A DNA stretch of 64,000 nucleotides, from positions 14,694,001-14,758,000 of the forward strand of contig CM102290.1 in NCBI GenBank assembly GCA_046563655.1, in the 5' to 3' direction. The notes under the pieces are model-generated. The model saw only the letters and a program-made list of their open reading frames with translations. It made no database searches and was not told where the DNA came from. Source of the DNA: Yuukianura sp. NJ FZ-2021. Taxonomy: Eukaryota. This document shows, piece after piece, positions 3,234 through 61,901 of this stretch (position 1 is its first letter; each line of letters starts with the position of its first letter). The translations under genes and the position numbers were made by a program.

Positions 3234-3325
3234 CGGTATACCAATATGTGATAATATTAACATGTGATATACCAAGATGTGATATACCAAGATGGGATAT
3301 ACAAATATGGGATATACCAATATAT
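3234..3325. repeat. 15-bp degenerate tandem repeat GATATACCAAGATG(T/G)
   Basis: About 5 copies seen directly. Confidence 0.75.
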
Positions 3326-4468
3326 TTGGGCGGATACTAAATTCTCAGTGTGCCCCAACTTTAGTCTCATTCTTAATTCCTCGCACAGCATTCTGGAGAC
3401 CACAGAGGAAGTGTGGTGGGGGACCCTTGAAGTACCCCCTCAAGTCCTTCTGTTTCTCTGTATTAACGACCAAAGTCAATCCGATTAGACACACTTTCTT
3501 AAGGTCGTAACCAATAGAAAGTGAAAGTGTATTGGGATTTGGGTTCAAAGCGGCCGTTTTGAAAAGGTGGTGCAGAGTGGGAAGGTGAGAAATAAATCAG
3601 GTCAATTGGAAATGAATAATTCCTCACCATTTCCCCTGCCCAACTACTCAATTGAATTGCATGAGTTCTCCTCAACCTTACGGCCCTTTAGTACTCCACA
3701 CATTACGTCCATCGCTTTTTGGAATTTCACTTCACTTTCCTTTTCCCTCTCTCTTGTACTCCGTGTTCAAAAAGTCACGTTTTACCCCAACAATCTAATC
3801 CTGTAACGTTTTGAGTAGCACAAAATACAGCGTGTAGTAGTTCCAGAAGGTAACAAGCCATTGTTTCTAATGAATTGTTCCGAATGAATTGCCTCAAAAG
3901 CAACTGCTCCGAAAGGTAAATTGTTCCGAAAGACAAGACACTTTTTAAAACATCTAAGGGATACGTACGAACATTTTTTTTGAAATGCTGCTCTAACATC
4001 TATTTTTCAGTCATGCTTGAAAATTAACCGCGAAATTTTGAAGAAAATTTTTGAATTTAATGATCGCACTCTGATTTCAAATTTTGTCACCCGCGGCGTA
4101 CACTTCATTTTTGGATTCAAAATTACTCAACCGTGAAGAGTACTTCAAATTCAAATTTGGCACCAACTTACAAATCACTCTTCAAATTCAAAATTTACAA
4201 ACCACTCAACCGTTTTCCCTCTTCATTCTGCATATTCAGCAGCTTTCAAAAAAAATTTGACTAAAGAGCATAACCAGAAGTGGAGAAAGTTAGAGCCCAG
4301 AAAAGACTCAATTCTTGTTTTCTTGGTTCTTGGCTCAAGGTCTGTTTAGATTACACCAAAAATTAGACTAGTCAACATTAGGTTTAAGAATAACATATGT
4401 TAGGTTAGCATAACCTAAAAAATTGTGTAGGGTTGGACATGTCTCCAGCGACATTCGAGCGACGTGGG

Positions 4469-34400: not shown

Positions 34401-34521
34401 GACTCCAGTGCTGCTGGGCCACGGAGAGCGAGCAGAGTTGGCCACTGATGACTATGTCACGCTCTCACCAATTCTAGAAGGCTTTGTTATCCTTAGGAAG
34501 AATCCGGAGGCGGGAAACTGA
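31451..34521 (+). CDS. Rpn1: 26S proteasome non-ATPase regulatory subunit 2 (Rpn1/PSMD2)
   Basis: Exons about 31451-31468, 31586-31935, 31997-32393, 32462-32615, 32692-33330, 33404-34521. Diagnostic sequences [63 protein letters not shown]. The first exon and start codon are less certain. Confidence 0.95.
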
Positions 34522-43588: not shown

Positions 43589-46541
43589 TCACATGGATCT
43601 GTAGGGGCCTTGCATCTTCAGAAACTAAAAACAAAAATACAAATCAAGTTACACGGCCTACTCAACCCAAAAGCTAAGAAATTTCAAAATTTCGGTCGAA
43701 GTAAGGATTAACTACCGTCATTGTAGCCGCACACGCACAGTAGTGTAGCCACTCCGTCATTTTACTGGCAACATTGGGTGGCTACACCTAAGTGGCAAGT
43801 TAAGTAGCCACGTCAAACTGACCTAACTAAAGGTGGCAACATAAGTTGCTGCTCAGTGTAGCCACTAAAAATGGCCAAGTGGGTACACTTCGTGGCTACA
43901 ATGACAGTCCTTATGCCTTACTCCAACCACAACTTCCAAGTTTTTCAATTTGAATGTACCTGAATGACCAATGAGGGACCGCCTGCGACAATTTCTGCTG
44001 GAATTTGTGACAGAGGGCAGTTCTCAATGCTCATGATTTGGAGGTTGGTGCAGAGAGCGAGCTCGAACGGAAGGGAGTGGAGGTTCGTGTTGTCATTGAT
44101 GTAGAGTGACTCCAGAGTCTCCAGTGTACCAATTTCCTCAGGCAAGCAACTCAAGTTGTTCTCTCCCACGCTCAAGTGCGTTAAGCTCATCAAATGTCTA
44201 ACAAAAACAAGAAAAAATATGTTAAAAAGTTAGGCTATGACACATTAACTTTTAGTTAAAGTTAGGTTAGCTCACCCAATAGCTCTGGGCAGACTCGTCA
44301 GCTGATTGGACTGAACAATCAGTTTGTGAAGGTCTCTCAAGAATCCAATTTCGTTTGGAAGGAACTCCAGCTTGTTCTCTTCCAAATCCAGAACCCGAAG
44401 TTTACGCAAATTCCCAATACTCGGCGGAACTCTCTACAAAGTGACACAAAATATGACAAAGTCAAAACATTTTCAAACTTTTGGCGCCAAAACCGCCATT
44501 AGAGTTCTAATTGGTCAAAGCTTTGGCGCCAAAATGAACTCGGTTTCTGATTGGTTGTGGTAGGAATTTGAAGAAACTAACCTTGAGTAAGTTGTTTGAT
44601 AGAATGAGAACTTCCAAGGCTTGAAGACACTGAATGTCATCGGGAATCTTCGTCAGCTGATTCGTTCCGAGGTTTAGCTCCACCATATTCGTCCACGTTC
44701 CGATATCTACAAAATTCAAAACAAAATCAACACTTTTACAACTTCCAAAATTCCAAAATTTTGAAATGTGAAATTTTGAATTTTGAAATTTGTTTGTACC
44801 CAATGGTAATGAAGTGAGTAGGTTCTCCTTCATGTTGAGTTTGGTAAGATTCTTGGCCCGTGAGAAGATGCCGTAGGGAATCTTGTCAATTTGGTTGTGT
44901 TCCATGTTGATGGCATAGACATTGGTGAATTGTGCTGGTCCACCAGTGGGATAGGCCGTGAAACTGTTTCTCGACAGTGTGACGTTACTCAGGCTGTGCA
45001 AACTTGATAGCAGCCCATCAGGTAACTGTGATACTGAATTGCCCTCGATGTTGAACTCGTCCATGTTCGTGCAGTTGCTGAGGGACTTTGGAACAGACGT
45101 CAGGCGATTGTATCTGTGAGACAAACAAGAAAAATTACAATCCAGAATCAAAATTTTGAAAACTATTTTTCGAAGTTTTGAGTTTTGACTTTGAAAAGTT
45201 CACCTGAGTCCGATTCGTGTGAGGTTCTTGAGGTTGCCGACTGCCTCTGAAATGTCAAAGAGCTCGTTGTGCTGGAGGTCAAGAGTTGACAACTGAACGC
45301 AGTTCCCAATCTCGTCTGGCAAATGCTCCAAGTGATTATGAGACACGTCCAGAGTCACCAAGCTCATCAACTTCCCAATTCCAGGCGGCAGATCCTTGAT
45401 TTTGTTCTCACGCAGACTCAACATGGTCAAGTTCTAAAAAAAAGTCAAATTACTTTACTTTCCAACTTAAACCAAACTTTGGAAAAATTTTAAATTTTTT
45501 AAAAAATTGAAGGTACTTTTTAATAGGTGCTTGACTTACCACGAGCTTTTGAATTTCGTTCCCGACGACTTTGATACGATTGAATCTCAAGAAGAGCGTA
45601 GTCAAAGAAGTCAGTTTGTACACAACGTCAGGGATCTGTTTAGAAAAAATTTAGAAAAGTTTAAAAAGTTGAAGTTTTTTTAACCTTTTTTTTTCTCAAA
45701 CTTACTTCACTAAGTTTGTTGTGCCGGAGATCCAAAACTTTGAGGTTCTTGAGACTGGCCAGGGAGTCGGGAAGGCTCGTGAGGGAGTTTTCGTTTAAAG
45801 CTAACGTTTGCAGGTTGACTAGAAACCCCATTTCATTTGGCAATGTGACCAATTTGTTACCGTACAAGTACAGCTCCTCCAGTTGTGTCAACTCTTTCAC
45901 AGATGACGGAATATGGGTGATCTACAAGACAAGATCAATGTCAAGGTCAATGTCAACTTCGATTACTAACTGATTGAGACTTACACTTGATTTGCTGAGA
46001 TCTAGGCGCTTGATGCCTTCGTCCTTACACTTGGCAAACTCCTTGCCAACGTCCAGGTCTGCCTGAATCGGTTTACTCTTCTTGGCAGTCGGTTTTGGCT
46101 TGTTCGACTCCGGATGCTTCACAGTGACCATTTTGGGTTTGGAACTGTCTTGCCCAGCTAGAGATCCTGCCGATAGTTTCTTTTCCTGAAACGACAACAA
46201 AACGATCGATTGATACACAACTTGTCATGTCATGTCATAGCAAAAATCAATCGCTACACTGACCTTCGCAGTTTCCTTCTCTTTGTCCTTGTCCTTTGTG
46301 GTAGTTGATGGAGCTGGATCACGATCAGATGATGATTCAGGCATGTCGGCCGTTGGATCTGTATCAGGGGATCCTGGACTCGAACTTCCAATGCTATCAA
46401 CAATCAGCAATTTAGCAACTACTTATCAATTAATCAAAGATGTATCAATTAAGCTTACCCTCCAGCGTTTTCTCCCTTGTAGTCTGCCAGTCGTTCGGCA
46501 GCGGTGCTACTTTCGTTCGTTCTTGCTTTGCTCTTTTTCAT
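43589..46541 (-). CDS. SHOC2: Leucine-rich repeat scaffold SHOC2/Sur-8/soc-2
   Basis: About 11 exons of LRRs with family-specific segments [73 protein letters not shown] and C-terminus [19 protein letters not shown]. The start ATG at 46541 is inferred from exon phase. Confidence 0.93.
43700..43922. mobile_element. Probable MITE in the last SHOC2 intron
   Basis: Imperfect ~30-bp terminal IR with core GTCATTGTAGCC/GGCTACAATGAC and internal GTAGCC/GTGGC repeats. Confidence 0.55.
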
Positions 46542-47828
46542 TCCGTGGTCCTCGTCAGACACAACCGCATCAGACGAACGACGAATCTACACAGCTCAGC
46601 TCTACATCTAAAGAAAAAGTAACAAACAATGAAGATAAAAAATCATGCCAATTTCAGCTGTCTTGACAACGGAACAACCTTGGTGATTGGCCGGCTTTAG
46701 CTTACATAATCTATGATGTCAATTAGTTTTGTACAGATTAACTTGAAACTTACGCCTGTCACCAGTGACTTTGTGCTGTCCCGTTGTTTGAACTGCTGTT
46801 AGATAAGTTGCATTTGAAATTTGAACGCTATCAGGACATGAGCCGAATACAAAACGAAAGGAAATCGTCCTTTTCTATGCTTATTTGAGCTTTTGTTGTT
46901 GTTATTCACGATGTGAGGTATATGGTTGTGGGTCAGCTGACCTCTTGCACTGTGCCAACTTGACTATGACGAGAGTGGCGTAACCGAATGTCAATTAACT
47001 TGAGAGATTAACGGTGAATTTAGATAAATCAAGATTAAAACTAAGATTACAAAAACGAATTCCTTGTTTCCTTGTCAATCTAAATCATTTTTAGACAAAA
47101 GAAAAAAAAAGCATGACACGGTCCACTCCCAACTTTTGAATTTCCCTCCCGCCGCTTTCCTGGGCTTTTACCATTGACGATGAATTAGTTTTGAAATGCA
47201 TTAATATATTTGTAGTATATATTATTAATATTATTGAAAATGTAATTTAAAAAAAAATTTGTTGAATAGGGAACATTTTAACATGTGATCGGTGAAATTG
47301 AAATGAATAGAAGAGCAACACTTGCAGTTTTACAAATCGGCAACACTGTGAACTTTTATTATTTGAAGAAATTAAATTTACACCTGAACTACGTAATTAC
47401 TAAATTACGAAATTATTTCAGTTTTAAAACTAACACTACACGAAACAGTTGTAAAGAGCTCAAAGAAATTTAGTTAGCAGTAATAATTATTAAGGATGAA
47501 ACTGATCATAGCAATGACAGGCGGTTGTAAGAAGCCTATCGCGTGATCAGGAAATTACGAATTACTTACGAATTCTTTACCAATGAATTTTTTGATGAAA
47601 TCTTTTTAACTTGTACTAATTTAGCTTAATTAACTAAACCAAAACATCTGGTAAAAAACAATTTTGAAATCTAACAATTGTAATTACCAACTACTGGAAT
47701 TGTAATTATGAACTACAACAATGGGAATTTTGAATTACAGCAATTGTAAACACCAAAACAAATATGTAAGGCGGCACACCTGTCTCAAATGTTAGGTTGA
47801 AGTAAATGAAGAAATGTATTTTTCATAC

Positions 47829-48887
47829 CTACGCAGACGCAGGAGAGCAATCTTTCGAATCTCGATGGCGGACTAAATTCCTTTTGTATCTAAACTCCAT
47901 GCCACAATTCTTGCAAACGAACGGCTTCTCGTTTAAGTGAATGCGAAGATGGCAGGTCAAAGTACCCCTTTGTGCAAATGCTTTGTCACAGAACTTACAT
48001 GGAAATGGCCTCTCTCCAGAATGGACACGCGCATGGTTAGTGAGGGTTGATTTACATCTGAACTTCTTGTGGCACACTGTGCACTTCAAGTCCTTTACTC
48101 CTGCATGCATCTTCAGATGATACTTCAATGTGGTGGAAGTGCTGAATTCCTTGTCACATTCCTTGCATGGGTGTGGTTTCTCTCCAGTGTGGATCCCAAT
48201 GTGGTACTTCAAAGCATTGTGTGACTTGAATGTGGCTGTGCACAGCACACATGCGTATGGTTTCTCTCGCGTGTGTTGTCGCATGTGGATGTCCAATGAC
48301 TTCTTCTCTACGGTAGCATAAGTGCAGAAGTTGCACTGGAATCGCTTGTCTCCAGCGTGGATCCTTTGATGCCTCTTCAGATGGATCTCTTGTGTGAATC
48401 TCTTTTGGCACTCCGTGCATTGGAAACGACGTTCATTTGTGTGTGTTGCAACATGGTTGTTCAATTGCCCTTGTGACTGTGCAGCATAGTTGCAGATTGT
48501 GCATGTGAATTTGCTTACATTTGTATGTATGATGAGGTGTTGTTTGAGTTCTGAGTTTGTTTTGAACTTGTTTTTGCAGTGACTGCATTCTACCAATCCC
48601 TCGTACGTGTGACCTCTCATGTGAATTGTGAGTTTGCTTTTCTGGATGAATGTTTTAGTGCATCTTGTGCAGTGGAATGGTCTTTCCCCTGTGTGCAGAG
48701 CCATGTGGTCCTTCAAATGATGATTATGTTTGAATCGTTTGGGGCATTCGGAGCAACCAAACGGTCGAACGTCAGAATGAACAACAAAGTGGTTGGACAG
48801 AGTCTGGGAAGTTTCGAACTTTTTGTGGCAATGGTTGCATTGATGCTTTTTTCCAGTTCGAGTGACCTCTGACCTTTGGTCAGCCAT
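47829..48887 (-). CDS. Tandem C2H2 zinc-finger-only protein, 12 fingers (copy A)
   Basis: Intronless 352-aa ORF with 11 C2H2 fingers plus a terminal C2HC finger and TGEKP-like linkers. Only ~14 aa precede finger 1. A probable 5' UTR intron lies at ~48916-48993. Confidence 0.9.
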   Translation of the reverse strand: MADQRSEVTRTGKKHQCNHCHKKFETSQTLSNHFVVHSDVRPFGCSECPKRFKHNHHLKDHMALHTGERPFHCTRCTKTFIQKSKLTIHMRGHTYEGLVECSHCKNKFKTNSELKQHLIIHTNVSKFTCTICNYAAQSQGQLNNHVATHTNERRFQCTECQKRFTQEIHLKRHQRIHAGDKRFQCNFCTYATVEKKSLDIHMRQHTREKPYACVLCTATFKSHNALKYHIGIHTGEKPHPCKECDKEFSTSTTLKYHLKMHAGVKDLKCTVCHKKFRCKSTLTNHARVHSGERPFPCKFCDKAFAQRGTLTCHLRIHLNEKPFVCKNCGMEFRYKRNLVRHRDSKDCSPASA

Positions 48888-49039
48888 TTTGCCTCAACAA
48901 GGTTATTGCAGTACCTAGAGAAAATAGGGCATTATTACTCATTACTTTTTCACTCTAAATTATACTTCCAGCACAAAAATATAACTGTTTTACCTTCTTG
49001 TCGGCTCCAACTACGAAGTGTCCGCTTGACCTCTTACTG

Positions 49040-49370
49040 CGTGACCTTGACCTTTGACCCTGTCTTGCGAGAGTGACACTGGAAGCGTCCTTCCTGCTCC
49101 GATCCCTCTCTCCCTCTGACTGAACAAATGCTTCTCTTCCCTCCAAGAAAACTATCATGCCATATTACGATAGCCACAAAAATATCACAAGAAACAGCAT
49201 TTTTGCATCTTGCAAAAATTCATAATTTCCCTAAAAACTTGTAACCTCATCGCTCATCTCAAAATTTGCAAATGAATGGGACCTTTGCAAGGCATTTTAG
49301 ATCTCACAATCCATTTACGTTTTACGTAGTCGTCGCCACATGAAACTCAAAGTTTTCAAATTCAAATTCT
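49040..49370 (-). promoter_or_regulatory. Conserved upstream block of ZF copy A (putative promoter/5' UTR)
   Basis: High-identity reverse-complement match to ~58056-58400, upstream of ZF copy B. Confidence 0.6.
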
Positions 49371-49839
49371 CCTTCTCCTGATTTACCCAGTCTTATAAGC
49401 TCATGCATTGCTAGCAACGAAACACGAGGAAATTACTAGGACAAGAAATATAAAAAACAGAAATTGATTTCAAAATTTTCAACTTGCTGCTCAAATTTAT
49501 TTAGCTCAACTCTTTCCGTCTTCTGCAAAAACAAATTAGTTCACGTAAATTTTGTACAATAAATTTTGCCAAAGCCAAAGTATTCTCCTCCCTGAATTTT
49601 GGAAGCAGTCTAAAAAATAATTTGGTTTTTGAACGTGCATCACAAATTTTATTATTTCTGAAATGTTAAATCGAAATGTAAGTTTCTACACAATAAATTA
49701 AAATTTTGAAATCGGCTAAAAGTTAGACTAACATTTTAGGTTATGTGGAGGATATCCAATGGTGTTTTAAGGTTAACAATCATTTCTAAAGTGAAAGGAA
49801 AAGTTTTAGGTTAAAAACCTAATGTGAACCTACTTTACA

Positions 49840-52800
49840 TTAGGTTGAGTCCGTAGTATTTCCTTCTACCCAGGGTGAACCTTGATTCTGTTCAAACATG
49901 TTCAAATCGTCGATGAATTTTTGGAGATTGGGTGAAATGCAGGGAACGCAGAGCGTGATGGCTCCTCCGTCTCTGTCCGGAAGACATTCGCACAGTTGAC
50001 AGTCGGAGGGTGACGCAGTGGAGGCGACACGTCGTGACCAAACGTCCACGAACTTCTTGGCGACTGCTGGTCGCTGGACCATTTTGACGTTGAACACTGT
50101 TCCGTTCGTCTCCAGGGCCAGTGGAGTGCACAGGTCTTTGGGAATCTTGACTTGTCGCCGCAGAGGTCGGTCACCCTCGATTGGTCCACGCTTCATCTGT
50201 CGCACGGTGTAGGCTCCCTCCATGTCAACTCCAAACATTTTACTCCCTTCATCCTGTTTTGTGTCCACCTAAGCAAAAAAAAAACGAATTCTAAGCTCTG
50301 ATTGGTTGTTTCTCAAAATACTGGATTGTGATTGGCCAATTCCCCAAATCCGGCAATCTGATATTGGCCCTTGCTCAAACTCCTGGAATTTGATTTGCGA
50401 TTTGTTATTTTTTTGTTTTCAAAATGCTTGAATCTGATTGGCTCTTTCTCAAAATCCTTTAATGTGATTGGCTTAAAAAGTGAGGCGTGACTAACCTTGA
50501 GTGAGAAATCCTGTGGCGTCAAAATATGAAGTCGAATGTCATTTTCGAGCAGAAGTGTCAAAGTGTCGGAGTATCGGACGTTGTCTTGGCAGCGTTCCAG
50601 TGTCGTCGTCACGGCAACAATTGTCTTGGAAACTCCAGCTCTGTATCCAATTGTCGCTCCAAAGTCAATCGCTTCGTACAAATCTCCCTTTACATCTCCG
50701 TCCATGATCGACGTGTCACTGATTTTGAACGAGTTTGCAGATGCCCAGACTTCCGTGTTTGACGTGCGTAGATGCGGTTTGACTCGGCCTCCTTTCCCAC
50801 CAAATCCAATAATTGCGTAGCGGTTGTTTTCAATTCCTTCAGTTTTTAACGCAGCTTCTAACTTTTTGACGGCGTCAATTAAGTTGTAGTCACGCAGACT
50901 CGCGGCTTCTTCGATCAGAAAAACAACGTCAGCGGAGTTTGGTGGGCGACGGACGTCAGGGCTGTACGTCATGTTTTCACCACTTCTCATTTGAGCACCT
51001 CCTTCCAACGTACATTTTACTAAAAAAAAAGTCAAAATTTTATTACTTTTTCAAAAATTTTCAAAATTTTTCAAAATTTTGAAAAGTTTACTTACCACAA
51101 ACTGGAGGCATCCAGATATCAATGCCATGACGTTGACATTGCATGACGTAAGCAGCCAAGGCGGTGCAAATTCTTCCCGCCTTTTCTCCCGCCGCGTTTT
51201 TGACGTCATAGTGACACATTTTGCGGTAAATGTCGACTTCCACGGTGTTGAAGCACGGTCGCAACGGTGACGCCGTGGAATTGAGCATTTGAGTACACAA
51301 ACTGTCTTCTGCGTCTGCGCCTTTGTTGGCATAGTTTTTCATCTGACACTGTCCACTCTTCGGTCCGACCCGCCAAGAATGTCCAAAGTTTGCTTCATCA
51401 GTGACAACAGTTCCGTCCGGAGTTGTCATGTCATTGGCTCTTTCGTTGTCGTAGTTGCCAAGGAGACCGCCGAGTTTGCCAAAGTACCATCCAGAAACAG
51501 AGATGCGACAAACGCTGGTCGCCTGGCTACACCTCATTTGAAATCCGCGTGTATCGATGACCTCGAGTCCCGACCGTTGTCGTCTCACAAATGTCGGACC
51601 AACGGTAAACGGCGTATCGGTAAGGCGACCATCCACTTTGACGACAAGCGACATCGCGTCGATGTCGACCGTACTTGATCCGGTTATGAGCGTGTAAGAT
51701 TTTTTACGTCCTCCATCGTAGTTAACAATCAAAGTTAAATTCTGGTGTAGCAAGTCGGTTGTTAGGATGTAGCTGCAGTCGCCAGCGAAACGGAAGTAGG
51801 TTTGGTCGAAGGTCAGAAAGTGATGGTCGCCGGCGACTAAAGCTGTCGCTTCAAAAGGTGGCAGCATGTCGCGAATGTCCATTTCCATGACAGGTTGGGC
51901 GTTTCTCAAAGTGTCCATGATTTCAGCGTAGAAGTTCTGGATGTGTGAGATGTGATGGATGTCGGACTGGGTTTGTCGGAACCTTGGCATTTCAGTGAAG
52001 TGATTCCACTCGACAAAGGTCAAAGGTTGGTTGTACTCGATGTGACCTTTGGCGACATCGAAGATCATGCTGGTCGTCGGAAGATGTGATTGGATGATGA
52101 GGTCAACTCGGGCCAAGATGCTGCGCACAAGTGACTTCACTTTCTGCTCAGCCTCGACGAAGATCCAGAAGCGATTGGCCAATCCCAGCACTCGGTTTGT
52201 GAGAAATCGGAGATAAGGAAGTGGCGGCATTTCCAAAATGGCGCTGATGTTGCCTTCTTCCAGCGCTGAACTCCAAGCGTCCACGTACGGCTTGTACAGA
52301 AGCTCCAGAGGGCGCCAAATACTGAAAATTCAACATATTCGTTAGTATTTCCTGAGGAAAATTACAAAGGAAAGGAAAGTAATTACAAGATAATTCAGTA
52401 ATTACAAAGTAACTACAAGGTAATTCAGTAAGTAGAAAGTAATTACAAGGTAATTCAGTTAATACGTATGATTCAGAAGCTAATTAAGTAATTACAAAGT
52501 AATTACATGCAATTGCAGAGTAATTGAATAAATACAATGCAACTGCAGAGTAATTGAGTAATTACAGTGTAATTTAGTAATTGCAAAGTAATAAAGTAGT
52601 TGAGTAATTACAAAGTAATTAAGTAATTACAACGTGAAATTCTTACAAGTCATAGAGCATTTGATATCCTTCGTCAATGTACTCCTGAATGGACAATTCG
52701 TTGATCCAATCACAGTAGTCCTTGTAAATTTGATTTACTTTCTGCACAATTCCGAGTCCTCTAAACGTTTTCTCTAGTTCTGCCAAGTTTCCATCCAGAA

Positions 52801-55800
52801 TGTGTCCAAGCGTCTTGTAACTTTGTAGCAGCGTTTTCACAATATTGCGAACAGCATTGGAAATGCTGGTCCAAGTATTTCGCAGTTTTCCTTCAGCAGC
52901 ATCCCAAAGTTTCATCAGTGCTGTTTCCAAATGCCAGTCAATTTCTTTCCAAATTTTCCTCATTTCAGCCAATCCGCTGCGAATTCTATCCAAAGCTCCG
53001 CCCACCAATTTTCCCAAAGTTTCAATCGTGTCGGACCTGAATTTTGCCAAATTGAAAAAAGTTTAAAAAAAAAATATACAAAACTTTATTTTTTTTAAGA
53101 ATTGAAATGGGGTTTCATTTTTTCTTAAAATTTTCCAAAATTTTACCAAGTTTCGTAGATTTTGTTGAACGCTGATTGGACAAGTTGTTCCAAATCCTTC
53201 GTGTAGAACGTGTTTCTTTGATGGACTTGTTTTACATATCGTGCTGCCTTCATGACCTCTTGGCCAATGACCTTGACCTCTTCTTTGCTAAATTCCTTCA
53301 GTTGTTCAAATGCTTGGGTCAAACTGGGGTCAACCAAGGTCAGCCGATCTTCAATTTCGTCGTTCACAACAGCCAGTGCTTTCGGCACCTCTTCGCTCCA
53401 GACCCTGCCGATCCATCGGGGAATCACTTCCGTCACGTATTGTTTCACCTCGTCAGCCGTTTGTGGACGCCAATGAACTTGAGTTGACAGAATTTGCGAC
53501 GCGTTGAGCTTAAAGGTCACGAAGAGGTCACGGATCGTCATGCCAAAGTCAGTTCGGCCGATTTTGAGTGACACTTCTTTGGTATGTGGCAGACCAGCAG
53601 TCAAGGTCAGCTCTCTTCCAGAATCATATTTGAGTCCACCGCGAATCAGGGGTGGGGACGCGACAAGGTCAGCTGACATCTCCGCCGATCCGGCCTTAAC
53701 ATACAGTCTAGGCTGGTCCAAGGTTGGTTTATATTCGAATTTCAAAAGTTGGCCTGAAGTGGTTGACCAGTCAACGTAAGTTCCATGGACGTCTGAGGTC
53801 AGCTCGAAGTTGACCTGTGCTTTTTCTCCTGAAAAGAGTAGATGTGAGGCTCCCAAGGTCACGGTAGAGTCGATCTGCTTGAAATGACCTGTGACCTCTG
53901 TGTTTGTTACAGGATGGGTCAAGAGCAACTGAATCTCTCTGTTTCTGATTCCGTCTCGTCTGAGGTCAAAGGTCAAAGTATTTTCTGGAAATGGATTTGG
54001 CTGAAACACAAACGAGAATCCTTGAAGGGCAAAGTTGGTATAACGCCGATGCAGAGTAAAGGTCAGGTCATGCGCAAGGGCAGAGTGAATGATGGTCAGA
54101 ACAGCTGATTTTGTGGAACTCCTCCAGGCAGTGACCTTTGACCTGGTCAGTCGGTAGCCACTTTGTTTCGTCGGATCTCTTCCGATATCAAACCGAATCA
54201 AAGCCGATTCGGTTTGTTCCTTTTGACTTTCAGATTTCTGTCGTTCGAGTTCAATTGACCTCCAAGGCAGGTCAACACGCATGCGCAGAACTTGTTTCGT
54301 GATACCCGCTTTTTTGGGCTCTTCGATCCAGGAAATACGGTAACCAGCCTCTCCAGCTCCGTGTGACTTTGGTTGGTTCCATTTGAGGGCCACTGAGTGC
54401 TCGAAATTGTTGTCACTGCGCATGTGCAAAGTGCTCAACTCTACAAATCCGTATTTTCCAGCGTGACCTTTGACCTTGAATGCTTTGTTTTTGAAGTTCC
54501 AAGATCCCGTGACCCCGGCAGTACTTTGTGACCTTGAGGTCAAATCCCAACAGACTTCGGCCATAACAGAGGACATTGGAGTGGATGTGTCGTAGCCAAT
54601 GGACAGAGAAACTGGACGGAAGAAGGGATTGTGGATGTCCAGAATGCGTTTTCCAGGTTTGTTGACCAGTTCGACGTGGATGACCTTGAGGTCATTGTGG
54701 GACAGGCCAAAGGTCACGTCCATGTTGCTCAAAAGGTCAAAGGTCAAGGAGTTCTGGTTTATGGGGGACAAACGATAAACGGCTGCAGCAGAACGCACAA
54801 TTTCAAACGGAGTTTTCAACCGAACTTCGCCTTCCATCAGACTCTCGTCCCTTAAAGAAAAAAGTATGAAATTTTAATTTTTTTTTTGTTGAATATTTCA
54901 AAATTTTGATTTTTTTGACAATTTTTTTTCGATTTTTTTTGACGATTTGGTTTGAATTTTGTTGCTTTGAAGTTTTTCTTTTAAAATTTTCAAAATTTTT
55001 AATTTTTTTTTTTCGAAAATTTTATAATTTTGAGACTCGTTACCTAATGACTCCAGTTGAAAAGAGGAAGAGTTGGTTGTAGTTGAGGGCCATTTCAGTT
55101 GAAAGTGAAAATCTCTTCGGTTGAAACAGCGTTTCAACTTTAGTTAAAAATTGGTACTCAGTTTCTTCTCCCATTTTTCCTTCGATTGACCCCAGGAATG
55201 ACTCAGGGGTCATGGTCCCTTCGATTTTCAACACTGGACGATAAGTACCCCAGGACCCTTCAAGTACCCCAGAATACTTGGACTCTTTGACGTCGCTCCT
55301 CATCCGCACAGAAAGTGGCGACATTTGCATCATTTCTGGCACCAGTTTCAACTCTCCCTCGATATCTCCAAGGCCGTTGTATCTAATTCGGTAATCGATT
55401 TCTACCCCAAGGGGTTTGCCCCAAGGTCGTTGAATCTCCACATGAATGTTGTGACCTGCACCGATCTCTTCGTAACTTTGAATTTGACCCAAGAGGTCAA
55501 ACTGCTCATAGCCTTTGAACGGTGACCTCAAAGTTATTTGCACTTTTCTGTTGTCTCTGTCGTTTTGAACTCTGGAGGTCAACAGGAGTTTGTGTTGGTT
55601 GACCTTGACCTCGACAGTGGCATCTCCCCATTGATTCCAAATGATGTTCCCGCCAAGAAGGATTTCAAAATGACGAAACCCGTCGATTGGACTGTTGGCC
55701 TCAATCTTGATTTCCATTGGTTCGTCGACGTCCAATCGGAAGCGATCGTAAGGCGTCAAGTTGACGTAGACGTCATATCGCTCCGGATCGTCATTCGGTT

Positions 55801-58800
55801 GTTGTTGCTCAAAATGGAACCCAAATTTTCCGTGAGTAGACGCCGATGGAATTTGGAATGAAGCTAAAAAATTCAAAATTTTAATTTTAGTTTCCTTTTG
55901 AATTGATTTCCTCAAAAAATTTGAATTTTGTTTAGTTAAAATGCAGGATTTGAGAGCAAGAAGGTATTGTGCTGGGTAGCTCAACAGTGAGAGCGATTAC
56001 CCGGAAATGGGAGATGTAGGTTCAAATCCCACTTTAGCCAAGTATCTTTTTTCTCTCTTTTTAGCAATGTGGAGTCAGTGGAAACTAACTGTTCATCGAA
56101 ATTTAAAAAATTCAACTGTAACTTTAAATTTCAAAGTAGTTTTTACCTCCTGCGGAGTATTTGACCTGGGCAAGTCCAATTGTGACCTTGGGATGAAAAT
56201 TTGTGAAATCGTTGGATTCGAAAAAGTTGATTCCAGAAGATTTGATGACAAAATTTGGCAAGTCGTCGACTGGCGTTCGGAATTCGATTTCTACGACATT
56301 TTCACCGATTTTTCCAGCGATCGTTATCCAGTCAATTGCTTTGAATGGAGTCATCAGTTCAAATTTGACCTCCATGTCACGGTAACTTTCATATCTTAAA
56401 GTTCCTTCTCCGCGGAACCTACTTCCAAAAGTGTCCAGGTCACCGATGAAACTGACCTCGTTTTCACCTATTCTCGCTCTGACATGTCCACTCAGTGGCA
56501 ATTCGCTCAAAAATGGACAATTTACAAAAAATTTCACTTCCCGCTCTTTTCTGTCCGCCGTAAATTCAAATTTGTGTGACGAAACTGTGTTGGCAATGAC
56601 CTTGACCTCGATCTTGTCCCAATCTAGAGAGTATTTCGTTTCAAATAGAAGTGGTTCTGCCAGTGGGGACTCAAATTTGACCTGGATTGACCCCTGATGT
56701 CCAAGGTCAACTTTTAGGCTCAGCGCATGCGTGGCTTGTTTCGTCCGGCATTCGACGGTGGCCGAAAATCCAGTTTCTGCCGGCAGAAATGATCCGACGA
56801 CCGAAACTTTTTTTCCTTTGAACAAATTTTGTGATTCGCCATTAATTTCGAAAAAGTGTCCATCTTGTTTTTTCGTCGCACCGAAACTTCCGAAATGTGT
56901 TCCGAACGATCCCGAAACTTTGAGTGAAGCCGAAACAGTCGATTGAGATGAAACGAACTCTCCAATGGCTCCAAACGACTCTTGGCCAAGTGACCCTGAC
57001 AAGTCCATCATCATTCTACCGGCTCCGATGTTCCGAATCTTGAAACCGACTTCCAGAGGCTGTGATTGGAGTACCGGAATGTTTCCAAAGAGCCGAATGT
57101 CGACTCCATCGTCGGTAAGAATCAAAGCCGTTTCGACCGTGGACGAATCCCGGTTGGCCGAAACGGTACTGCGCAGTCTCAGTTCTTGTCCAAGGTCAAT
57201 GACCCCGTCGGCTTCAAAACGCAGTGGAGAAGATTCGTGTAACACACTCGGCACGTGAGCTGTGACGTCAAAGTTGAAATTTTTGCCAAAAAGCCAGGAA
57301 AATTTGAATTCGTTTTCTCCATACTTCAGCCCGCCTTTGAAATCGTCAATTTCAAATTTCTGCGCTTCCAGCGATCCTTTGACGACGCTGGCAGCGATCA
57401 ATTCGCAGTCGATGAACCACTCAGCTCCAAGCTGTTCGTGACCTCCGATCGGCAGGTCATACCGGAACGCTCCTCGGTGGTTTCCTTTCGGTAAGGTCAA
57501 TGACCCCTCCAGTTCAGCATGATGCCAGCCGCTGATTGGTCGACGCAAGGTCCAATCGCTGCTGACCTCGACATAGTCGCTTCTTGGTAGAGAGATGCTC
57601 ATGCGCAGAACTTGTTCACTCATGAGTCCGAATTGTGACGACTGGTGCTGACCTGAGCGGAGAGAGCCCTTGACCGACAGTCGCCGGTCGCCCATGCTCA
57701 TTTCCAGGATTCCGACGACATTGGACTTGTCGACCATTTGCAAATGGATTTTAGCATCCACTTTCTGCCCGAGCACTGGAACGTCGACGCTCATGCGTGC
57801 AGCGATTGTGTCGTCTTTCGTGAGCAATTCAGCGCGAAGTCCGGATTTGACGCCTTCGTAAGTGACGAATCCATCGGCAGAGTATTCTTCAGCGTCTACT
57901 TTGTAGCGACCACTCACCTCAATTTCACTTGCCCAAGGAGACTTCACCGAAGCCTGAAAGTTCAACACAAAAACATAAACAATTGTCAGATAACTTCAAA
58001 TCCAACTTTGCAAATTTTTTTGAAAAGAGGGCAAAATGCGGGCAAAACGAAAACTAGAATTTGAATTTTAAGAGTTTCAAGTTTCTGTTGTAAAAGTTAT
58101 GCAAAATGTAAATTCATTGTAAGATGTGAAATGGTTTGTAAAGGTCCAATCCATTTGCAAATTTTGAGATGAGCGATGAGGTTACAAACTTTTAGGGAAA
58201 TTATGAATTTTTGCAAAATGCAAAAATGCTGTCTCTTGTGATATTTTTTGCGGCTATCGTAATATGGCATGACAGTTTTCTTGGAGGGAAGAGAAGCCTT
58301 TGTGCAGTCAGAGGCAGAGAAGCAGCGGAGCAGGAAGGACGCTTCCAGTCTTACTTTGGAAAGACAAGGTCAAAGGTCAAAGGTCACGCAGTCAGAGGTA
58401 AAATGCACATTTAGCTCCGACTAAAGATCAGCTCAGCTTTAGACACTTCATTGCTCCAGTCAGGAAATTGGTAAGAACACACGAAAATATTTGTGCTGGA
58501 AGTGTAACTTGTACGAAAAGGGAAAAAAGAGAAGTCAATAACATGCTTTTTTGTTTGGGCAATAGCGGAATCTGGTTGAGACAACATGGAATGTCAAAGG
58601 TCAAATGTCGCCGTAACTGGAAAGAACTACGAGTGTGATCAATGTCACAAATACTTCAAAACTGCACAAACTCTACGCCAGCATTCCGTAGTTCATTTGG
58701 AAGTTCGGCCATTCAGTTGCTCCAGATGCTCAAAAACATTCAACAGGCAAGATAGTCTTACAATTCACATGCGAGGACACACGTACGAGGGAATGTTTGA

Positions 58801-61800
58801 ATGCAGTCACTGCAAAAACAAATTCAAATCAAACTCAGAACTCAAACAGCATCTCATCATACACACAAATGTAAGCAAATACACATGCACTATCTGCAAC
58901 TATGCAGCAGCATCGCAGAGGAAGTTGGAGGATCATGTTGCAACACACACAAATGAACGTCGTTTCCAGTGCACGGAGTGCCACAAGAGATTCACAACAG
59001 AGATCCATCTGAAGATGCATCTGAGGATCCACGCTGGAGACAAGCGATTCCAGTGCAACTTCTGCACTTACGCATCCATAAGGAAACAGCATCTTGACAT
59101 CCACATGCGACAACACACGAATGAGAAACCATATGCATGTGTGTTGTGCACAGCCACATTCAAGTCACATGATGTGTTGAAATACCACATGGGAATCCAC
59201 ACTGGGGAGAAACCACACCCATGCAAGGAATGTGGCAAGGAATTCAGCAAATCCAGCACATTGAAGAATCATGTGAAGATGCATGCGGGAGTGAAGGAGT
59301 TCGAGTGCACAGAGTGCCATAAGAAGTTCACACAGAAATCACACCTCACTGTTCATGCGCGTGTCCATTCTGGAGAGAGGCCATTTACATGTAAGTTCTG
59401 TGACAAAGTATTTGCACAGAGGTCTCATTTGACCCGCCACCTTCGCATCCACTTGAATGAGAAGCCGTTTAGTTGTGGGAGTTGCCAGGCAGAGTTCAGA
59501 TACAAACGCACTCTGCTCCGTCACCGAGAGGAATGCTGCGTCGACGCATAAGTTACAAATTCTGTCCAACCATCTCACTTCATGTTATTAGTAACTATCT
59601 CCTTTAGCGCAGTAGGTAAGGTTAAGTAAGTAAAATTAAAATTTTCAAATGTTAATTGTTTGTTGATGAATTGTTAGTTATGGGATTCCTTCAAGAAGAG
59701 TAGCTCATAACTTCTGTATGCACTCTGTTTTTGTGTTTCAGTTTGATTAGTTAAATTTGTTGTTTAGTTAATGTTGTTTTAGGAATTATTGAATTTAGTA
59801 GTTTTAGTCCACTGACATCCACCACTCAAGTATTTTGATGCAATTCCTGTTTTGAGGTCATTGACCTCTAGACAAATCCAAATCCAGTTCAAAATGTAAA
59901 TAAAAAGTTCAGTATTCTTTGCATTAGAAGCAAACTATGAGTTGCTCCGTGGTTTCAAATTATTCCGAAGAATTTGAATAATTTCAACATTTTCAATTTC
60001 TGTTGGCTGAGATTTCTGTTTTTCTCTCACATGTTTTAGCGTTCAGTAAAATTTTGCATTTTTTGTGAAAAAAAGACGTGAGTCTCCAGAAGACTTTAAA
60101 GGTTGTTGGTTTTCAAAAGTATTGAGTTTTTTTGTGCTTTGCATTCGCGGACATACACCTTCTCATTAGTATAATAAATTCGTGACTATGGAATTCCGGA
60201 ATTACATTTTCTCATTAGTATTAAAAACATTACCTTCAGTTTCCCCTTGTTAGTTTCTCCAGAAAACCGAACTCCGTCGCCAGCATCCTTCCATTTGACT
60301 TGACTGCTAAAAACTGATCTGTCTCCAGTCTGTTCCAGAAACGACTTAAATCCAAAGTCATCTCCAACAGTGAAGTTCCACGAGTATTGTCCAGGCGTAA
60401 AGAAGTGATGTGACCTCAGGGTCAACCATTCCACTGAATTGACAGACAAAGTCATGTCAGATTCCGCTGCCTCCAAAACACTTTTTCCTTTTCTTCCTTC
60501 AAAATTTCCAGAAATGTCCACAGTTCTGGAACCCCAGTTGCCTTGGATACTCATTTTCCCATTTCCGTCTAACGTCGCTTCCAGCGCTGCATTCGGAATC
60601 GCTTCCCACGAACTTGTTAACTTAATTGAGCTTTCCAGGGATCCACCATTCGTCGGAATCATCACATTCGAGGTCAAGCTCAACTCTTCTCCCGCTACTT
60701 TAACATCTACTGAAACTTTTTTGTTGACCTTCCCCTCTCCTGATTCCATTTTTCCTTGAAGTAGTATGTTCTCTAGTCCAGGATAGCCTGAGGTCAAGGT
60801 CACCTTGACCTCTGACCCCCCAAAGGTCAAGTGAGCATGAAGGTCATGATTGGCCATTTGAAATGCGAGGTCACTACTGATTCCTTGCTCATTTCGGAGC
60901 CACCCAACTTCGGCTTTAACTGACGGCACAATTTCTTGAATGGGGCTTTCAAGGCGGAGTTTCAAGCCGAAATTGGCCCGCGGGCGGATAGAGGCCACGC
61001 CCCTCCAGTTGCCCGTTTGCAGCGAGTCGATTGAAATTGTAACTTGGCGGGTTCCGTCGCTTTCAATTTTGTAACCGGCTCGGAGACTAGCTGAAGCCGA
61101 AACGGTGACACTCGGAATGTTGCTGTCGACGTTCATGCGCAGCTCGATTTCCTGGGGATTATCTTTGGAAACGGTCGCCTGTGCTTTGACATTCAACTTG
61201 TACTGCTTCTGCGCAAAGAAAACTTCAACTGACTTGTCATTTGTACGCAGGTCATAAACGGCGTTGAGGTTAAACGGTTCTGAAATGGCTGGAGCGTTAA
61301 AGACCAGCTTAAGTTTGCTCATGAGCGGTTCAGCGACAAGAGTTGACGACAATGTCAATGCTGGTTGACGGTTTAGAGTGGATGAAATGTCGACGGTCAC
61401 TTCTCGTCCCATGACAATTTTACCAGACAAATTCAAATCTTGCATTGGCGGGAACGGCGTTTTGAGGCTGAAATCAATCAAACGGGCTGACTTTTCCTCG
61501 TTTTTGACGGATAAAGTCAGTTTGAGTGCTTGCGGTGATTGGTCTCCGACGTAGCTGACGGAAGCGCTGAATTTGTTCAGTCCAGCCTTAAGTGCTGCCC
61601 AGGAATACTGGACAGAAATTCCGCGTTCTGGAGCTTGGTTTTGGTTCCAGAAGAATTCAGCCTCGAGCGATTTGTAGTCTTCCTGTTTCCAGGATGACCT
61701 GAATGACCTTTGACCGTAAACGGGCAAATCGTAAGAGAGTTTGGCGTTGCCCTGAGCAACGGTTCCTTCCAGTGACCACTCGAGATTGATAGTTTCGTAA

Positions 61801-61901
61801 CCTCTGACCTTGGTTTGGATTTCGATGTGCCCAACTCTGAATCCCTGGATTTTGCATTTGACGTGGATGGAGTCACTACTTGGACCACTTTCAAGATGAA
61901 C
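49840..61901 (-). CDS. Large lipid transfer protein (apolipophorin/apoLTP-like), 3' portion; gene continues beyond the window end
   Basis: Exons (minus) 61901-60234, 57953-56147, 55863-55044, 54850-53147, 53036-52647, 52321-51096, 51019-50496, 50268-49840 with GT-AG boundaries. Long amphipathic beta-strand region, then a helical segment, a vWD domain (GDHHFLTFDQTYFRFAGDCSYIL..GLLGNYDNE), a Cys-rich C8-like region and a C-terminal ADVVFLIE domain. Subfamily assignment is inference. Confidence 0.85.
52376..52632. repeat. Degenerate GTAATT(ACA) repeat filling an intron
   Basis: Many GTAATT/AATTAC units in intron 52322-52646. Confidence 0.75.
55970..56039 (+). pseudogene. tRNA-like element, antisense in an intron of the lipid-transfer gene
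   Basis: TAGCTCAACAGTGAGAGC, GGAGATGTAGGTTCAAATCCCAC, acceptor GCTGGG/TTTAGC (G-U rich), then a T6 run. Confidence 0.65.
58056..58400 (+). promoter_or_regulatory. Conserved upstream block of ZF copy B (putative promoter/5' UTR)
   Basis: For example ATTTGCAAATTTTGAGATGAGCGATGAGGTTACAA and GTTTTCTTGGAGGGAAGAGAAGC are shared with copy A. The block ends in AGGTCAAAGGTCAAAGGTCA. Confidence 0.6.
58586..59551 (+). CDS. Tandem C2H2 zinc-finger-only protein, 11 fingers (copy B), nested antisense in an intron of the lipid-transfer gene
   Basis: Intronless 321-aa ORF and clear paralog of 47829-48887, lacking one 28-aa finger. It lies within host intron 57954-60233. A probable 5' UTR intron lies at ~58472-58565. 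Confidence 0.9.
   Translation: MECQRSNVAVTGKNYECDQCHKYFKTAQTLRQHSVVHLEVRPFSCSRCSKTFNRQDSLTIHMRGHTYEGMFECSHCKNKFKSNSELKQHLIIHTNVSKYTCTICNYAAASQRKLEDHVATHTNERRFQCTECHKRFTTEIHLKMHLRIHAGDKRFQCNFCTYASIRKQHLDIHMRQHTNEKPYACVLCTATFKSHDVLKYHMGIHTGEKPHPCKECGKEFSKSSTLKNHVKMHAGVKEFECTECHKKFTQKSHLTVHARVHSGERPFTCKFCDKVFAQRSHLTRHLRIHLNEKPFSCGSCQAEFRYKRTLLRHREECCVDA

What the first reader, a model, noticed from the sequence alone, without database searches (positions are those of the whole stretch)
47829..59551. Paralogous effector-less ZF arrays diverge mainly at DNA-contacting residues (arms-race signature)
Seen in sequence: across fingers 4-11 the linkers and beta-hairpins of copy A (47829-48887) and copy B (58586-59551) are nearly identical, while changes cluster at helix positions -1, 2, 3 and 6. 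Examples: F6 TQEIHLKRH vs TTEIHLKMH (-1, 6); F8 SHNALKY vs SHDVLKY (2, 3); F9 TSTTLKY vs KSSTLKN (-1, 2, 6); F10 CKSTLTN vs QKSHLTV (-1, 3, 6); F11 QRGTLTC vs QRSHLTR (2, 3, 6); F7 EKKSL vs RKQHL. Copy B also lacks one whole finger. Established: this pattern marks diversifying selection in PRDM9 and in KRAB-ZFPs that chase transposons. Here no KRAB, ZAD, BTB or SET domain is visible, only ~14 N-terminal residues. Inference: a rapidly retargeting ZF-only family, possibly for transposon recognition in this MITE-rich genome.
Basis: partly seen in the sequence, partly recalled or inferred. Interest (0 to 1): 0.78.

Follow-up and report, generated by a model that had tools for sequence, protein, structure and literature searches.

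The report
Zinc-finger-only paralogs retuned at DNA contacts
Two neighbouring genes encode DNA-binding proteins made only of zinc fingers; they keep the same scaffold but differ mostly at the residues that read DNA, a pattern well known in animal zinc-finger families and here seen in an unannotated, probably crustacean, multi-copy family.

Summary
Copy A (47829-48887, minus strand, 12 fingers) and copy B (58586-59551, plus strand, 11 fingers) are 76% identical. In fingers 4-11, 20 of 32 helix positions -1/2/3/6 differ, against 19 of 187 other residues (Fisher p=4e-10).

A pairwise codon model gives omega about 1.9-2.3 at contact codons and about 0.2 elsewhere. The test against omega=1 gives p=0.005 for fingers 4-11 and p=0.04 for the whole gene. 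Two sequences give only moderate power.

The label 'effector-less' holds. There is no extra Pfam domain and an in-frame TGA lies two codons before each ATG. An RNA-like contig splices a non-coding exon 1 to copy B's coding exon across a 95-nt intron.

New points:
- The pair belongs to a larger family; many contigs at least 90% alike pile up on both arrays.
- The copies are mosaics: silent sites are saturated at both ends but little diverged in fingers 3-11 and in a 270-bp promoter/5'UTR block, which suggests gene conversion.
- Copy B sits antisense in an intron of an apolipophorin-like gene.
- Fingers within one array are unlike each other, so the array is not PRDM9-like.

No link to transposons was tested or seen. 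This is a new member of a known kind, of moderate interest.

The parts
47829..48887 (-). Copy A coding sequence, 352 aa plus stop. It has 12 fingers, the last of C2HC type, and a 14-residue N-terminal tail.
47500..47828 (-). 3' flank of copy A, covered together with the end of the CDS by one RNA-like contig (X3 record 17, laid on 47500-47997, 3 other letters, one 21-nt gap). Likely 3'UTR.
   Evidence: table 8
48888..48914 (-). Predicted 5'UTR part of copy A's coding exon. It holds an in-frame TGA at 48896-48894.
   Evidence: acceptor placed by homology with B
48915..48993 (-). Predicted 79-nt GT..AG intron of copy A. This is inferred from copy B; no junction was shown for A.
49033..49300 (-). 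Conserved upstream block of copy A, probably the promoter plus the start of non-coding exon 1. It holds AGGTCA repeats at 49060-49042.
58126..58395 (+). Conserved upstream block of copy B, with 51-58 of 60 bases identical to A per 60-base window. It holds three AGGTCA half-sites at 58366-58386. Many contigs diverge after 58366/58386.
58320..58470 (+). Non-coding exon 1 of copy B, as far as it is seen in the spliced contig X3 record 23 (0 other letters).
   Evidence: tables 5 and 8
58471..58565 (+). 95-nt GT..AG intron of copy B, removed in the RNA-like contig.
58566..58585 (+). 5'UTR part of copy B's coding exon. It holds an in-frame TGA at 58577-58579.
58586..59551 (+). Copy B coding sequence, 321 aa plus stop, with 11 fingers. 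Its finger 2 is a hybrid of A's fingers 2 and 3 (an 84-nt deletion, junction near 58723).
49840..61901 (-). Context: the 3' exons of an apolipophorin-like gene (VWD and C8 domains; stop codon at 49842-49840). Its intron at 57996-60185 houses copy B antisense. Copy A lies downstream of it on the same strand.

Best explanation
These are two intact, transcribed members of a lineage-restricted, multi-copy family of two-exon genes: a non-coding exon 1, a short intron and one coding exon. Each encodes a stand-alone tandem C2H2 zinc-finger DNA-binding protein.

After duplication, the zinc-binding scaffold, beta-hairpins and linkers stayed under purifying selection. The base-contacting helix residues (-1, 2, 3, 6) were replaced repeatedly, faster than silent sites in the same region. 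The paralogs should therefore recognise different DNA sequences; that is, they have been retuned in specificity under diversifying selection.

The family also evolves by recombination. One in-frame unequal exchange removed a finger from B. The centre of the array and the promoter/5'UTR block were homogenised by gene conversion, which keeps the copies under a shared regulatory sequence.

Shown here: the anatomy, the clustering of changes, the omega contrast, the mosaic divergence, the splicing of B, and the existence of more copies.

Inferred: positive rather than merely relaxed selection, gene conversion as the cause of the mosaic, and DNA binding with changed specificity.

With no effector domain, I expect these proteins to act either by occupying sites or by recruiting partners through some of their fingers. 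What they target is unknown.
For: Clustering at contact positions:
- F4-11: 20/32 against 19/187, p=4e-10.
- The true mask register is the best of 28.

Nucleotide differences in F4-11:
- Contact codons 38/96, helix 1/4/5 codons 8/72, other codons 41/489.
- Codons with two or more base changes: 12/32, 2/24 and 4/163 in the same order.
- The codons interleaved between contact codons are as conserved as the scaffold, so the signal is codon-specific and not a whole-helix effect.

Maximum-likelihood pairwise codon model:
- F4-11: omega_contact 2.28, omega_other 0.18, p=0.005 against omega_contact=1.
- F3-12: omega_contact 1.95, p=0.02.
- Whole gene with three segment-specific divergences: omega_contact 1.89, omega_other 0.225, p=0.043.

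Functional state:
- Both frames are intact and scaffold omega is about 0.2.
- An RNA-like run X3 gives a spliced exon1-exon2 contig for B with 0 mismatches, and a contig over A's 3' end.
- X3's two other listed joints restore an open apolipophorin-like frame to a stop at 49842-49840, so X3 is cDNA-like.

Larger family:
- Summed contig depth over both arrays is about 10-20 times that of flanking bins in X1 (2147-3584 against about 130-460). One flanking bin is excepted: 50788-51198 reads 3630 over a short intron repeat.
- Up to 12 distinct contigs carry one alternative letter.
- Displayed variants again hit contact codons. In A's F2, -1 changes H>R and 6 changes D>R, the latter with all three bases changed, alongside a single M>I. 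F8 position 2, F9 position 3 and F10 position -1 also vary.

Mosaic divergence:
- Divergence differs between segments with p=3e-13.
- The proportion of silent sites that differ (pS) is 0.84-0.85 in F1 and F12, against 0.04-0.21 in F9-11.
- The upstream block has 51-58 of 60 bases identical per window, against 18-41 of 60 in the intron and F1 region.

Finger loss in B rather than gain in A:
- A's finger 2 has no close twin; its best DNA identity to any other finger is 58%.
Against: - There is only one pair of full sequences. Significance for omega>1 is moderate and depends on which silent rate is taken as neutral.
- With the contact codons' own Nei-Gojobori dS, omega is 0.87 in F4-11 and 0.68 overall.
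- Bootstrapping contact dN over whole-gene dS gives a median of 0.95, above 1 in 43% of replicates.
- With a single divergence for the whole gene, omega_contact is 1.36 and was not tested against 1.
- Silent differences in identical-residue codons are somewhat more frequent in helix codons (8/35) than outside them (17/143; p=0.11). A partly older helix segment therefore cannot be excluded.
- The depth sums are, by the tool's own warning, not copy numbers. 724 variant rows were not shown.
- X3 is labelled 'DNA?' by the tool; its RNA nature is my inference from three canonical splice joints.
- DNA binding, targets and function were not tested.
Confidence: 0.6

Rival explanations
1. Relaxed constraint only. 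After duplication the contact residues simply drift neutrally (omega about 1) because the copies are redundant, or are used for something other than base-specific DNA reading. Selection keeps only the fold. There is no adaptive retargeting.
For: - Omega estimates that use whole-gene dS or the contact codons' own dS are 0.68-0.95.
- The LRTs against omega=1 give only p=0.005-0.043 from one sequence pair.
- One displayed family variant reads a stop (TAA) at the F10 -1 codon, so some members may be decaying.
Against: - In the region where silent divergence is low, contact codons carry 38/96 base differences against 8/72 in the interleaved helix codons. 12 of 32 contact codons need two or more changes.
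- ML omega_contact is 1.9-2.3 and about 12 in F9-11; that region was picked after seeing the data.
- Three fingers of B changed independently to His at position 3, using different codons.
- Scaffold omega of 0.2 and two intact frames argue that both copies are in use.
Confidence: 0.22
2. Old differences are shielded from homogenisation. The two genes are ancient, with saturated silent sites at their ends, and have long had different specificities. Repeated gene conversion has homogenised the scaffold of fingers 3-11 and the promoter. Selection rejected conversion products that overwrote the specificity residues. On this view the pattern reflects preserved diversity and not an ongoing arms race.
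For: - Strong segment heterogeneity of divergence (p=3e-13).
- The proportion of silent sites that differ (pS) is 0.84-0.85 in F1 and F12.
- Silent differences trend higher in helix codons (8/35 against 17/143).
- Contigs in X1 and X2 switch between A-like and B-like sequence at homologous points: 48645/58743 in both runs, 49186/58269 in both, and 49192/58269 in X1 only.
Against: - Conversion tracts cannot skip single codons. Helix codons 1, 4 and 5, interleaved with the contact codons, are as similar as the scaffold (8/72 against 41/489 base differences).
- The helix silent excess is not significant (p=0.11).
- The switching contigs may be assembly-graph artefacts at shared words.
Confidence: 0.13
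3. One reading: the family is a transposon-recognition system, so that the contact-residue turnover is driven by an arms race with mobile elements, as for KRAB-ZFPs.
For: Only indirect support exists.
- The selection pattern and the family expansion.
- Published work finds that ZNF and TE copy numbers correlate across metazoans 'independent of the accessory domains', and that ZNFs of several animals are predicted to bind TEs (PMC10547256; I read passages only).
Against: - No target was predicted or tested here.
- No TE sequence in the window resembles the gene unit or its flanks: blastn of the unit and of five flank stretches against the window gave only the A-B matches.
- The neighbourhood is ordinary genes: RPN1, an M1 peptidase, an LRR protein and the apolipophorin-like gene.
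- Fingers are heterogeneous and many linkers are non-canonical, unlike young KZFP arrays.
- No repressor domain is present.
Confidence: 0.15

Closest known systems
KRAB zinc-finger proteins of tetrapods
   Same: Tandem C2H2 arrays in a lineage-specific multi-copy family. The scaffold is conserved and replacement is accelerated at helix positions -1, 2, 3 and 6. Fingers are gained or lost by in-frame recombination. The selection signature is the one attributed to Emerson and Thomas 2009 in a passage of PMC10547256.
   Different: There is no KRAB domain (PF01352 absent), and 14 N-terminal residues leave no room for one. Fingers within an array are very unlike each other, at most 65% in DNA. Only four inter-finger linkers are canonical TGEKP-like: TGERP, TREKP, TGEKP and SGERP. 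No transposon link is shown.
FiNZ-ZNFs of cyprinid fish (PMC10547256)
   Same: An independently expanded ZNF family outside tetrapods, with positive selection reported in recently duplicated clades and enrichment of dN/dS>1 at base-contacting residues in two clades (passages read).
   Different: FiNZ genes carry a conserved N-terminal domain; these proteins have none. Here only two full sequences could be analysed. Neither expression timing nor TE repression is known.
ZAD-ZNFs of arthropods
   Same: Arthropod lineage-specific expansions of C2H2 array proteins. The abstract of PMC7913770 (seen in the search listing) describes 'fast evolutionary lineage-specific expansion'.
   Different: No ZAD is present (PF07776 absent). 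The start codon is fixed by an upstream in-frame stop.
PRDM9
   Same: Rapid change at DNA-contacting residues of a C2H2 array. What is known about PRDM9 here is recalled, not tested.
   Different: There is no SET or KRAB-like domain. The array is not minisatellite-like: each finger of A has one clear counterpart in B (76-92% DNA identity for F3-F11) and at most 65% to any other finger.
Stand-alone poly-ZF proteins annotated 'OZF-like' or 'gastrula zinc finger XlCGF-like'
   Same: Proteins consisting only of a C2H2 array. These names dominate the best database hits.
   Different: The best hits are only 28-51% identical. That is generic array similarity; no orthologue was found.

Membership tests
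Tandem C2H2 zinc-finger proteins (Pfam PF00096 / PF13465) | Repeated C-x2-C-x12-H-x3-5-H/C units that match the Pfam models above their cut-offs | tested here: met
   PF13465 scores 227.7 and 217 bits, and PF00096 scores 144.7 and 156 bits, for A and B. The motif scan finds 12 and 11 units.
KRAB-ZFP | An N-terminal KRAB domain (PF01352) | tested here: not met
   No KRAB hit at E<=0.01. An in-frame TGA lies two codons before each ATG. Exon 1 of B joins upstream of that stop.
ZAD-ZNF / BTB-ZF / SCAN-ZF | An N-terminal ZAD (PF07776), BTB (PF00651) or SCAN (PF02023) domain | tested here: not met
   None is listed for either protein. Only 14 residues precede finger 1.
PRDM9-like | A PR/SET domain | tested here: not met
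   No SET hit.
PRDM9-like | A minisatellite-like array of near-identical fingers | tested here: not met
   The best DNA identity between non-corresponding fingers is at most 65%.
ZNF family under diversifying selection at specificity residues (the 'arms-race signature') | Differences enriched at helix positions -1, 2, 3 and 6 | tested here: met
   20/32 against 19/187, p=4e-10. The true mask is the best of 28 registers.
ZNF family under diversifying selection at specificity residues (the 'arms-race signature') | dN/dS above 1 at those positions | tested here: inconclusive
   ML omega is 1.89-2.28 with p=0.005-0.043. It is 0.68-0.95 with other choices of dS. Only one sequence pair was available.
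ZNF family under diversifying selection at specificity residues (the 'arms-race signature') | A recently expanded set of paralogues | tested here: inconclusive
   Summed contig depth is about 10-20 times that of flanking bins, and up to 12 distinct contigs lie at one place. The tool warns that this depth is no copy number, and no genome is held.
Transposon-targeting ZNF system | Binding to, or repression of, transposable elements | not testable with these tools
   There is no TE library, no genome and no binding data. No motif prediction was attempted.

The most novel reading that the evidence does not exclude
This would be a crustacean counterpart of the KRAB-ZFP and FiNZ systems. A co-regulated family of effector-less poly-zinc-finger genes has a promoter and 5'UTR kept nearly identical across copies, carrying AGGTCA direct repeats. 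Its members are under positive selection to track fast-changing genomic targets such as transposons. They would silence those targets by a route that needs no recognisable repressor domain, either by steric occupancy or by cofactor recruitment through some of the fingers.
Probability: 0.12. Interest if true: 0.65.

Novelty: new member of a known kind. Interest (0 to 1): 0.35.

Why it matters
Lineage-specific expansions of C2H2 zinc-finger genes, with fast change at the DNA-reading residues, are an established theme in animal genomes. Outside vertebrates and Drosophila, few families have been dissected. This locus offers a compact, intact pair, and behind it a larger family, in a probably crustacean genome without database relatives.

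The pair combines three processes: scaffold conservation, gene conversion of the promoter and array centre, and contact-residue turnover. If the family proves to be large, positively selected and expressed at a defined stage, it would be a usable test of whether effector-less ZNF families take part in genome defence. As it stands, it extends a known pattern and does not reveal a new one.

Tried and rejected
- **Whole genome.** None is held, so the paralogue set could not be collected.
- **Protein databases.** The word-indexed search at near and shorter lengths gave only generic ZNF hits of 28-51% identity. The window's own proteins were not listed. The exhaustive HMMER search of 1.84 billion representatives gave 175,605 hits at E<=0.001. 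The best 150 are long arrays of at most 48% identity, and none is an orthologue.
- **Metagenome contigs.** A 24-nt pattern from the conserved upstream block found 0 matches. The protein-based locus search gave 7 loci of at most 36% identity (L001-L007), which I did not use further.
- **Earlier findings of this scan.** Nothing came back by place, sequence or words.
- **Sequencing runs.** No RNA holder was listed; all five rows are labelled 'DNA?'. I treated X3 as RNA-like only because of its canonical splice joints.
- **Transposon carriage of the gene unit.** No convincing terminal inverted repeats surround either unit; the best flanking pairs are 19-30 nt at 70-84%. Neither the unit nor its flanks has another copy in the window. 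Identity decays gradually at the 5' edge. I rejected this idea as unsupported.
- **Intra-array micro-conversion as the source of helix changes.** Rejected. B's new His-3 residues use different codons and contexts, and fingers are at most 65% alike.
- **Rfam.** There were 0 matches in the window at gathering thresholds, so the conserved upstream block is not a known RNA family.
- **Technical failures.** timed out and was re-run. The 'whole gene' fit did not converge (H1 came out below H0) and was replaced. One search failed on a reference containing stop codons and was repeated without it. The mask offsets were mistyped and corrected.
Full report
**What is there.** The window holds exactly two C2H2 zinc-finger arrays (six-frame motif scan).
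- Copy A runs 47829-48887 on the minus strand. It encodes 352 aa with 12 fingers, the last of C-x2-C-x12-H-x5-C type.
- Copy B runs 58586-59551 on the plus strand. It encodes 321 aa with 11 fingers.
- Pfam finds only C2H2-type models, with no KRAB, ZAD, BTB, SCAN or SET.
- The proteins are 76% identical. B lacks exactly 28 residues, one finger period, joining the start of A's finger 2 to the end of finger 3.
- A's finger 2 has no close twin anywhere in either array (best 58% DNA identity). The simplest reading is that B lost a finger by an in-frame unequal exchange, not that A gained one.

**The observation.**
- In fingers 4-11, 20 of 32 residues at helix positions -1, 2, 3 and 6 differ, against 19 of 187 other residues (odds ratio 14.7, Fisher p=4.4e-10).
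- Over all aligned fingers the counts are 25 of 44 against 43 of 259 (p=6e-8). The interleaved helix positions 1, 4 and 5 differ at 1 of 24 in F4-11.
- Per position, each of the four contact positions differs in 5 of 8 fingers, and no other position in more than 3 of 8.
- When the four-position mask is slid round the 28-residue unit, the true register gives the maximum of all 28 (20 differences; next best 14).
- The clustering is real and far beyond chance.

**Is it more than relaxed constraint?** Nei-Gojobori counts for the whole gene give dN 0.156, dS 0.545 and omega 0.29.
- Non-contact codons of F4-11 give omega 0.20.
- Contact codons of F4-11 give dN 0.547. Their own dS is 0.627, giving omega 0.87, but that dS is inflated by path-averaging in multi-hit codons. 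The dS of surrounding codons is 0.274.
- A bootstrap of contact dN over whole-gene dS has a median of 0.95 and exceeds 1 in 43% of replicates.

I fitted a pairwise maximum-likelihood codon model (F3x4) with one divergence, one kappa and separate omegas for the two codon classes.

| Region | omega_contact | omega_other | 2dlnL vs omega_contact=1 | p |
|---|---|---|---|---|
| F4-11 | 2.28 | 0.18 | 8.04 | 0.005 |
| F3-12 | 1.95 | 0.22 | 5.45 | 0.020 |
| Whole gene, three segment-specific divergences | 1.89 | 0.225 | 4.08 | 0.043 |

- The first 'whole gene' fit did not converge and is discarded.
- With a single divergence for the whole gene, omega_contact is 1.36. That model is itself rejected (p=3e-13).
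- One omega for all codons is rejected at about p=1e-15.

At the nucleotide level in F4-11:

| Codon class | Bases that differ | Codons needing two or more changes |
|---|---|---|
| Contact (-1, 2, 3, 6) | 38 of 96 | 12 of 32 |
| Helix 1/4/5 | 8 of 72 | 2 of 24 |
| Other | 41 of 489 | 4 of 163 |

The acceleration is therefore codon-specific, and the point estimates exceed the local neutral rate. With one pair of sequences and a region chosen after the fact, the case for omega>1 is moderate, not decisive.

**Mosaic structure.** Divergence is very uneven along the gene.
- The proportion of silent sites that differ (pS) is 0.85 in F1 and 0.84 in F12, which is saturation. It is only 0.04, 0.16 and 0.21 in F9, F10 and F11.
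- The fitted divergence of the centre is 3-6 times lower than that of either end.
- Outside the coding sequence, a block about 270 bp upstream (A 49300-49033, B 58126-58395) has 51-58 of 60 bases identical per window. The stretch between it and finger 2 has only 18-41 of 60.
- There is no homology beyond the stop codon.
- The only matches to the A unit anywhere in the window are its three blocks in B.
- Contigs in runs X1 and X2 switch from A-like to B-like sequence at homologous points: 48645/58743 in both runs, 49186/58269 in both, and 49192/58269 in X1 only.
- I read this as gene conversion, or exchange with other family members, homogenising the promoter block and fingers 3-11. That is an inference. 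Strong purifying selection on the upstream block is an alternative for that part.
- Silent differences in identical-residue codons are not significantly more frequent in helix codons (8/35) than elsewhere in F4-11 (17/143, p=0.11). Both are below the gene ends (18/38). This argues against the contact differences being simply old helix segments that escaped conversion, without excluding it.

**Gene models and expression.** An in-frame TGA lies two codons upstream of each ATG, at 48896-48894 in A and 58577-58579 in B.
- Five public runs hold the stretch. All are labelled 'DNA?', and no RNA holder is listed.
- One of them, X3, nevertheless behaves as cDNA. It has zero depth in the intergenic bin 49144-49554.
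- Its two listed joints in the minus-strand host gene (introns of 76 and 227 nt, both GT..AG) restore an open frame of 728 codons, ending at a stop at 49842-49840.
- Its record 23 joins 58320-58470 to 58566-58682 with no mismatch. This removes a 95-nt GT..AG intron on the plus strand just upstream of B's ATG.
- B is therefore transcribed from its own strand, with a non-coding first exon that joins upstream of the in-frame stop. The protein has no hidden N-terminal domain in this transcript.
- X3 record 17 covers A's last fingers and 330 nt of 3' flank, with 3 mismatches.
- By homology, A has a 79-nt GT..AG intron at 48915-48993. This is predicted, not shown.

**A larger family.** In the genomic runs, the summed contig depth over both arrays is 2147-3584 in X1. 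Most flanking bins read about 130-460; one bin over a short intron repeat, 50788-51198, reads 3630.
- Up to 12 distinct contigs carry the same alternative letter at one place. 724 further variant rows were not displayed.
- The tool warns that such depth is not a copy number. I take it only as evidence that more than two sequences at least 90% alike exist.
- The few displayed variants inside A's fingers 2-10 again fall mainly on contact codons:
  - An A-like variant of finger 2 changes -1 H>R and 6 D>R, the latter with all three bases changed, plus one M>I. It is the only form in X3.
  - Finger 8 position 2 reads Ser in up to 12 contigs, where A has Asn and B has Asp.
  - Finger 9 position 3 and finger 10 position -1 also vary. 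One form reads TAA at finger 10 position -1, possibly a decayed member.
- A 3549-nt contig of organism B (X4; 137 other letters and 16 gaps over 2599 aligned bases) runs from the host gene's exon through the intron into copy B's first fingers. The nested arrangement is therefore shared with that related organism.

**Context.** Between the two copies lie the 3' exons of a large minus-strand gene with VWD and C8 domains.
- Its best named relative is an 'apolipophorins-like' protein of a barnacle, at 35% identity. This points to a pancrustacean-like host.
- Copy B sits antisense inside that gene's 2.2-kb intron (57996-60185). Copy A lies about 950 bp downstream of its stop codon, on the same strand.
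- Other neighbours are ordinary genes: RPN1, an M1 peptidase and an LRR protein.
- No terminal inverted repeats or other transposon hallmarks surround either unit.

**Relatives elsewhere.** I found no orthologue.
- The best database proteins are generic ZNF arrays of 28-51% identity.
- The metagenome scans gave nothing closer than 36%.
- Within the reach of these collections, the family is lineage-restricted.

**Comparison with what is known.** Accelerated replacement at contact residues in recently duplicated ZNFs is an established signature.
- Passages of PMC10547256 attribute it to Emerson and Thomas 2009 for KZNFs.
- The same paper reports it for zebrafish FiNZ-ZNFs. [quoted passage not shown] - An amphipod transcriptome paper reports an unusually high share of C2H2 transcripts (PMC3282834, passages).
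- For PMC5588721 and PMC7913770 I saw only the listing and the start of the abstract.
- The present locus works like these families, but it is not a KRAB, ZAD, BTB, SCAN or PRDM9-type member. Each defining domain was tested and is absent. The array is not minisatellite-like.
- Supplementary files of these papers were not consulted.

**Verdict.** The reading 'rapid retargeting of a ZF-only family' is supported in kind and moderately in strength. The transposon arms race remains an untested extrapolation. This is a new member of a known kind. The mosaic homogenisation of promoter and scaffold, and the nested antisense position of copy B, are its more individual features.

Noticed in passing
window 58366-58386 (+); 49060-49042 (-); 48875-48863 (-): The conserved upstream block of both ZF genes carries tandem AGGTCA half-sites. 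B has three with 1-nt spacing; A has three with one spacer shortened. Another AGGTCA-G-AGGTCA pair lies in codons 5-9 of copy A (codon 9 only in part). From memory, this looks like a DR1-type nuclear-receptor site; no test was made.
   Followed up: no
window 49385-49611: Contigs of X1 and X2 skip these 227 bp. This is a presence/absence variant directly next to the 5' edge of the A duplication unit (table 5). It has no other copy in the window.
   Followed up: partly
window 51047-51085: Many contigs have loose ends here, and summed depth is very high in bin 50788-51198 (3630 in X1). This suggests a short high-copy repeat inside the 76-nt intron of the apolipophorin-like gene.
   Followed up: no
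window 48054-48056: In X2 and in the RNA-like X3, every contig laid at 48054/48055 carries both changes, which turn the finger 10 position -1 codon of copy A (TGT) into TAA. In X1, one contig (195 of 436 depth) carries both. This may be a pseudogenised but transcribed family member or allele.
   Followed up: partly
window 48754-49193: A contig with the same 19 other letters and 6 gaps relative to copy A's 5' end appears in X1 (depth 81, about half the single-copy level), X2 and X4 (organism B). It is a divergent haplotype or a third close paralogue shared by both organisms (table 8).
   Followed up: no
window 32640-34521 (+), 37335-37838 (-), 44507-45199 (-): Exons of ordinary host genes lie upstream of the locus: proteasome subunit RPN1, an M1-family peptidase and an LRR protein.
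   Followed up: partly
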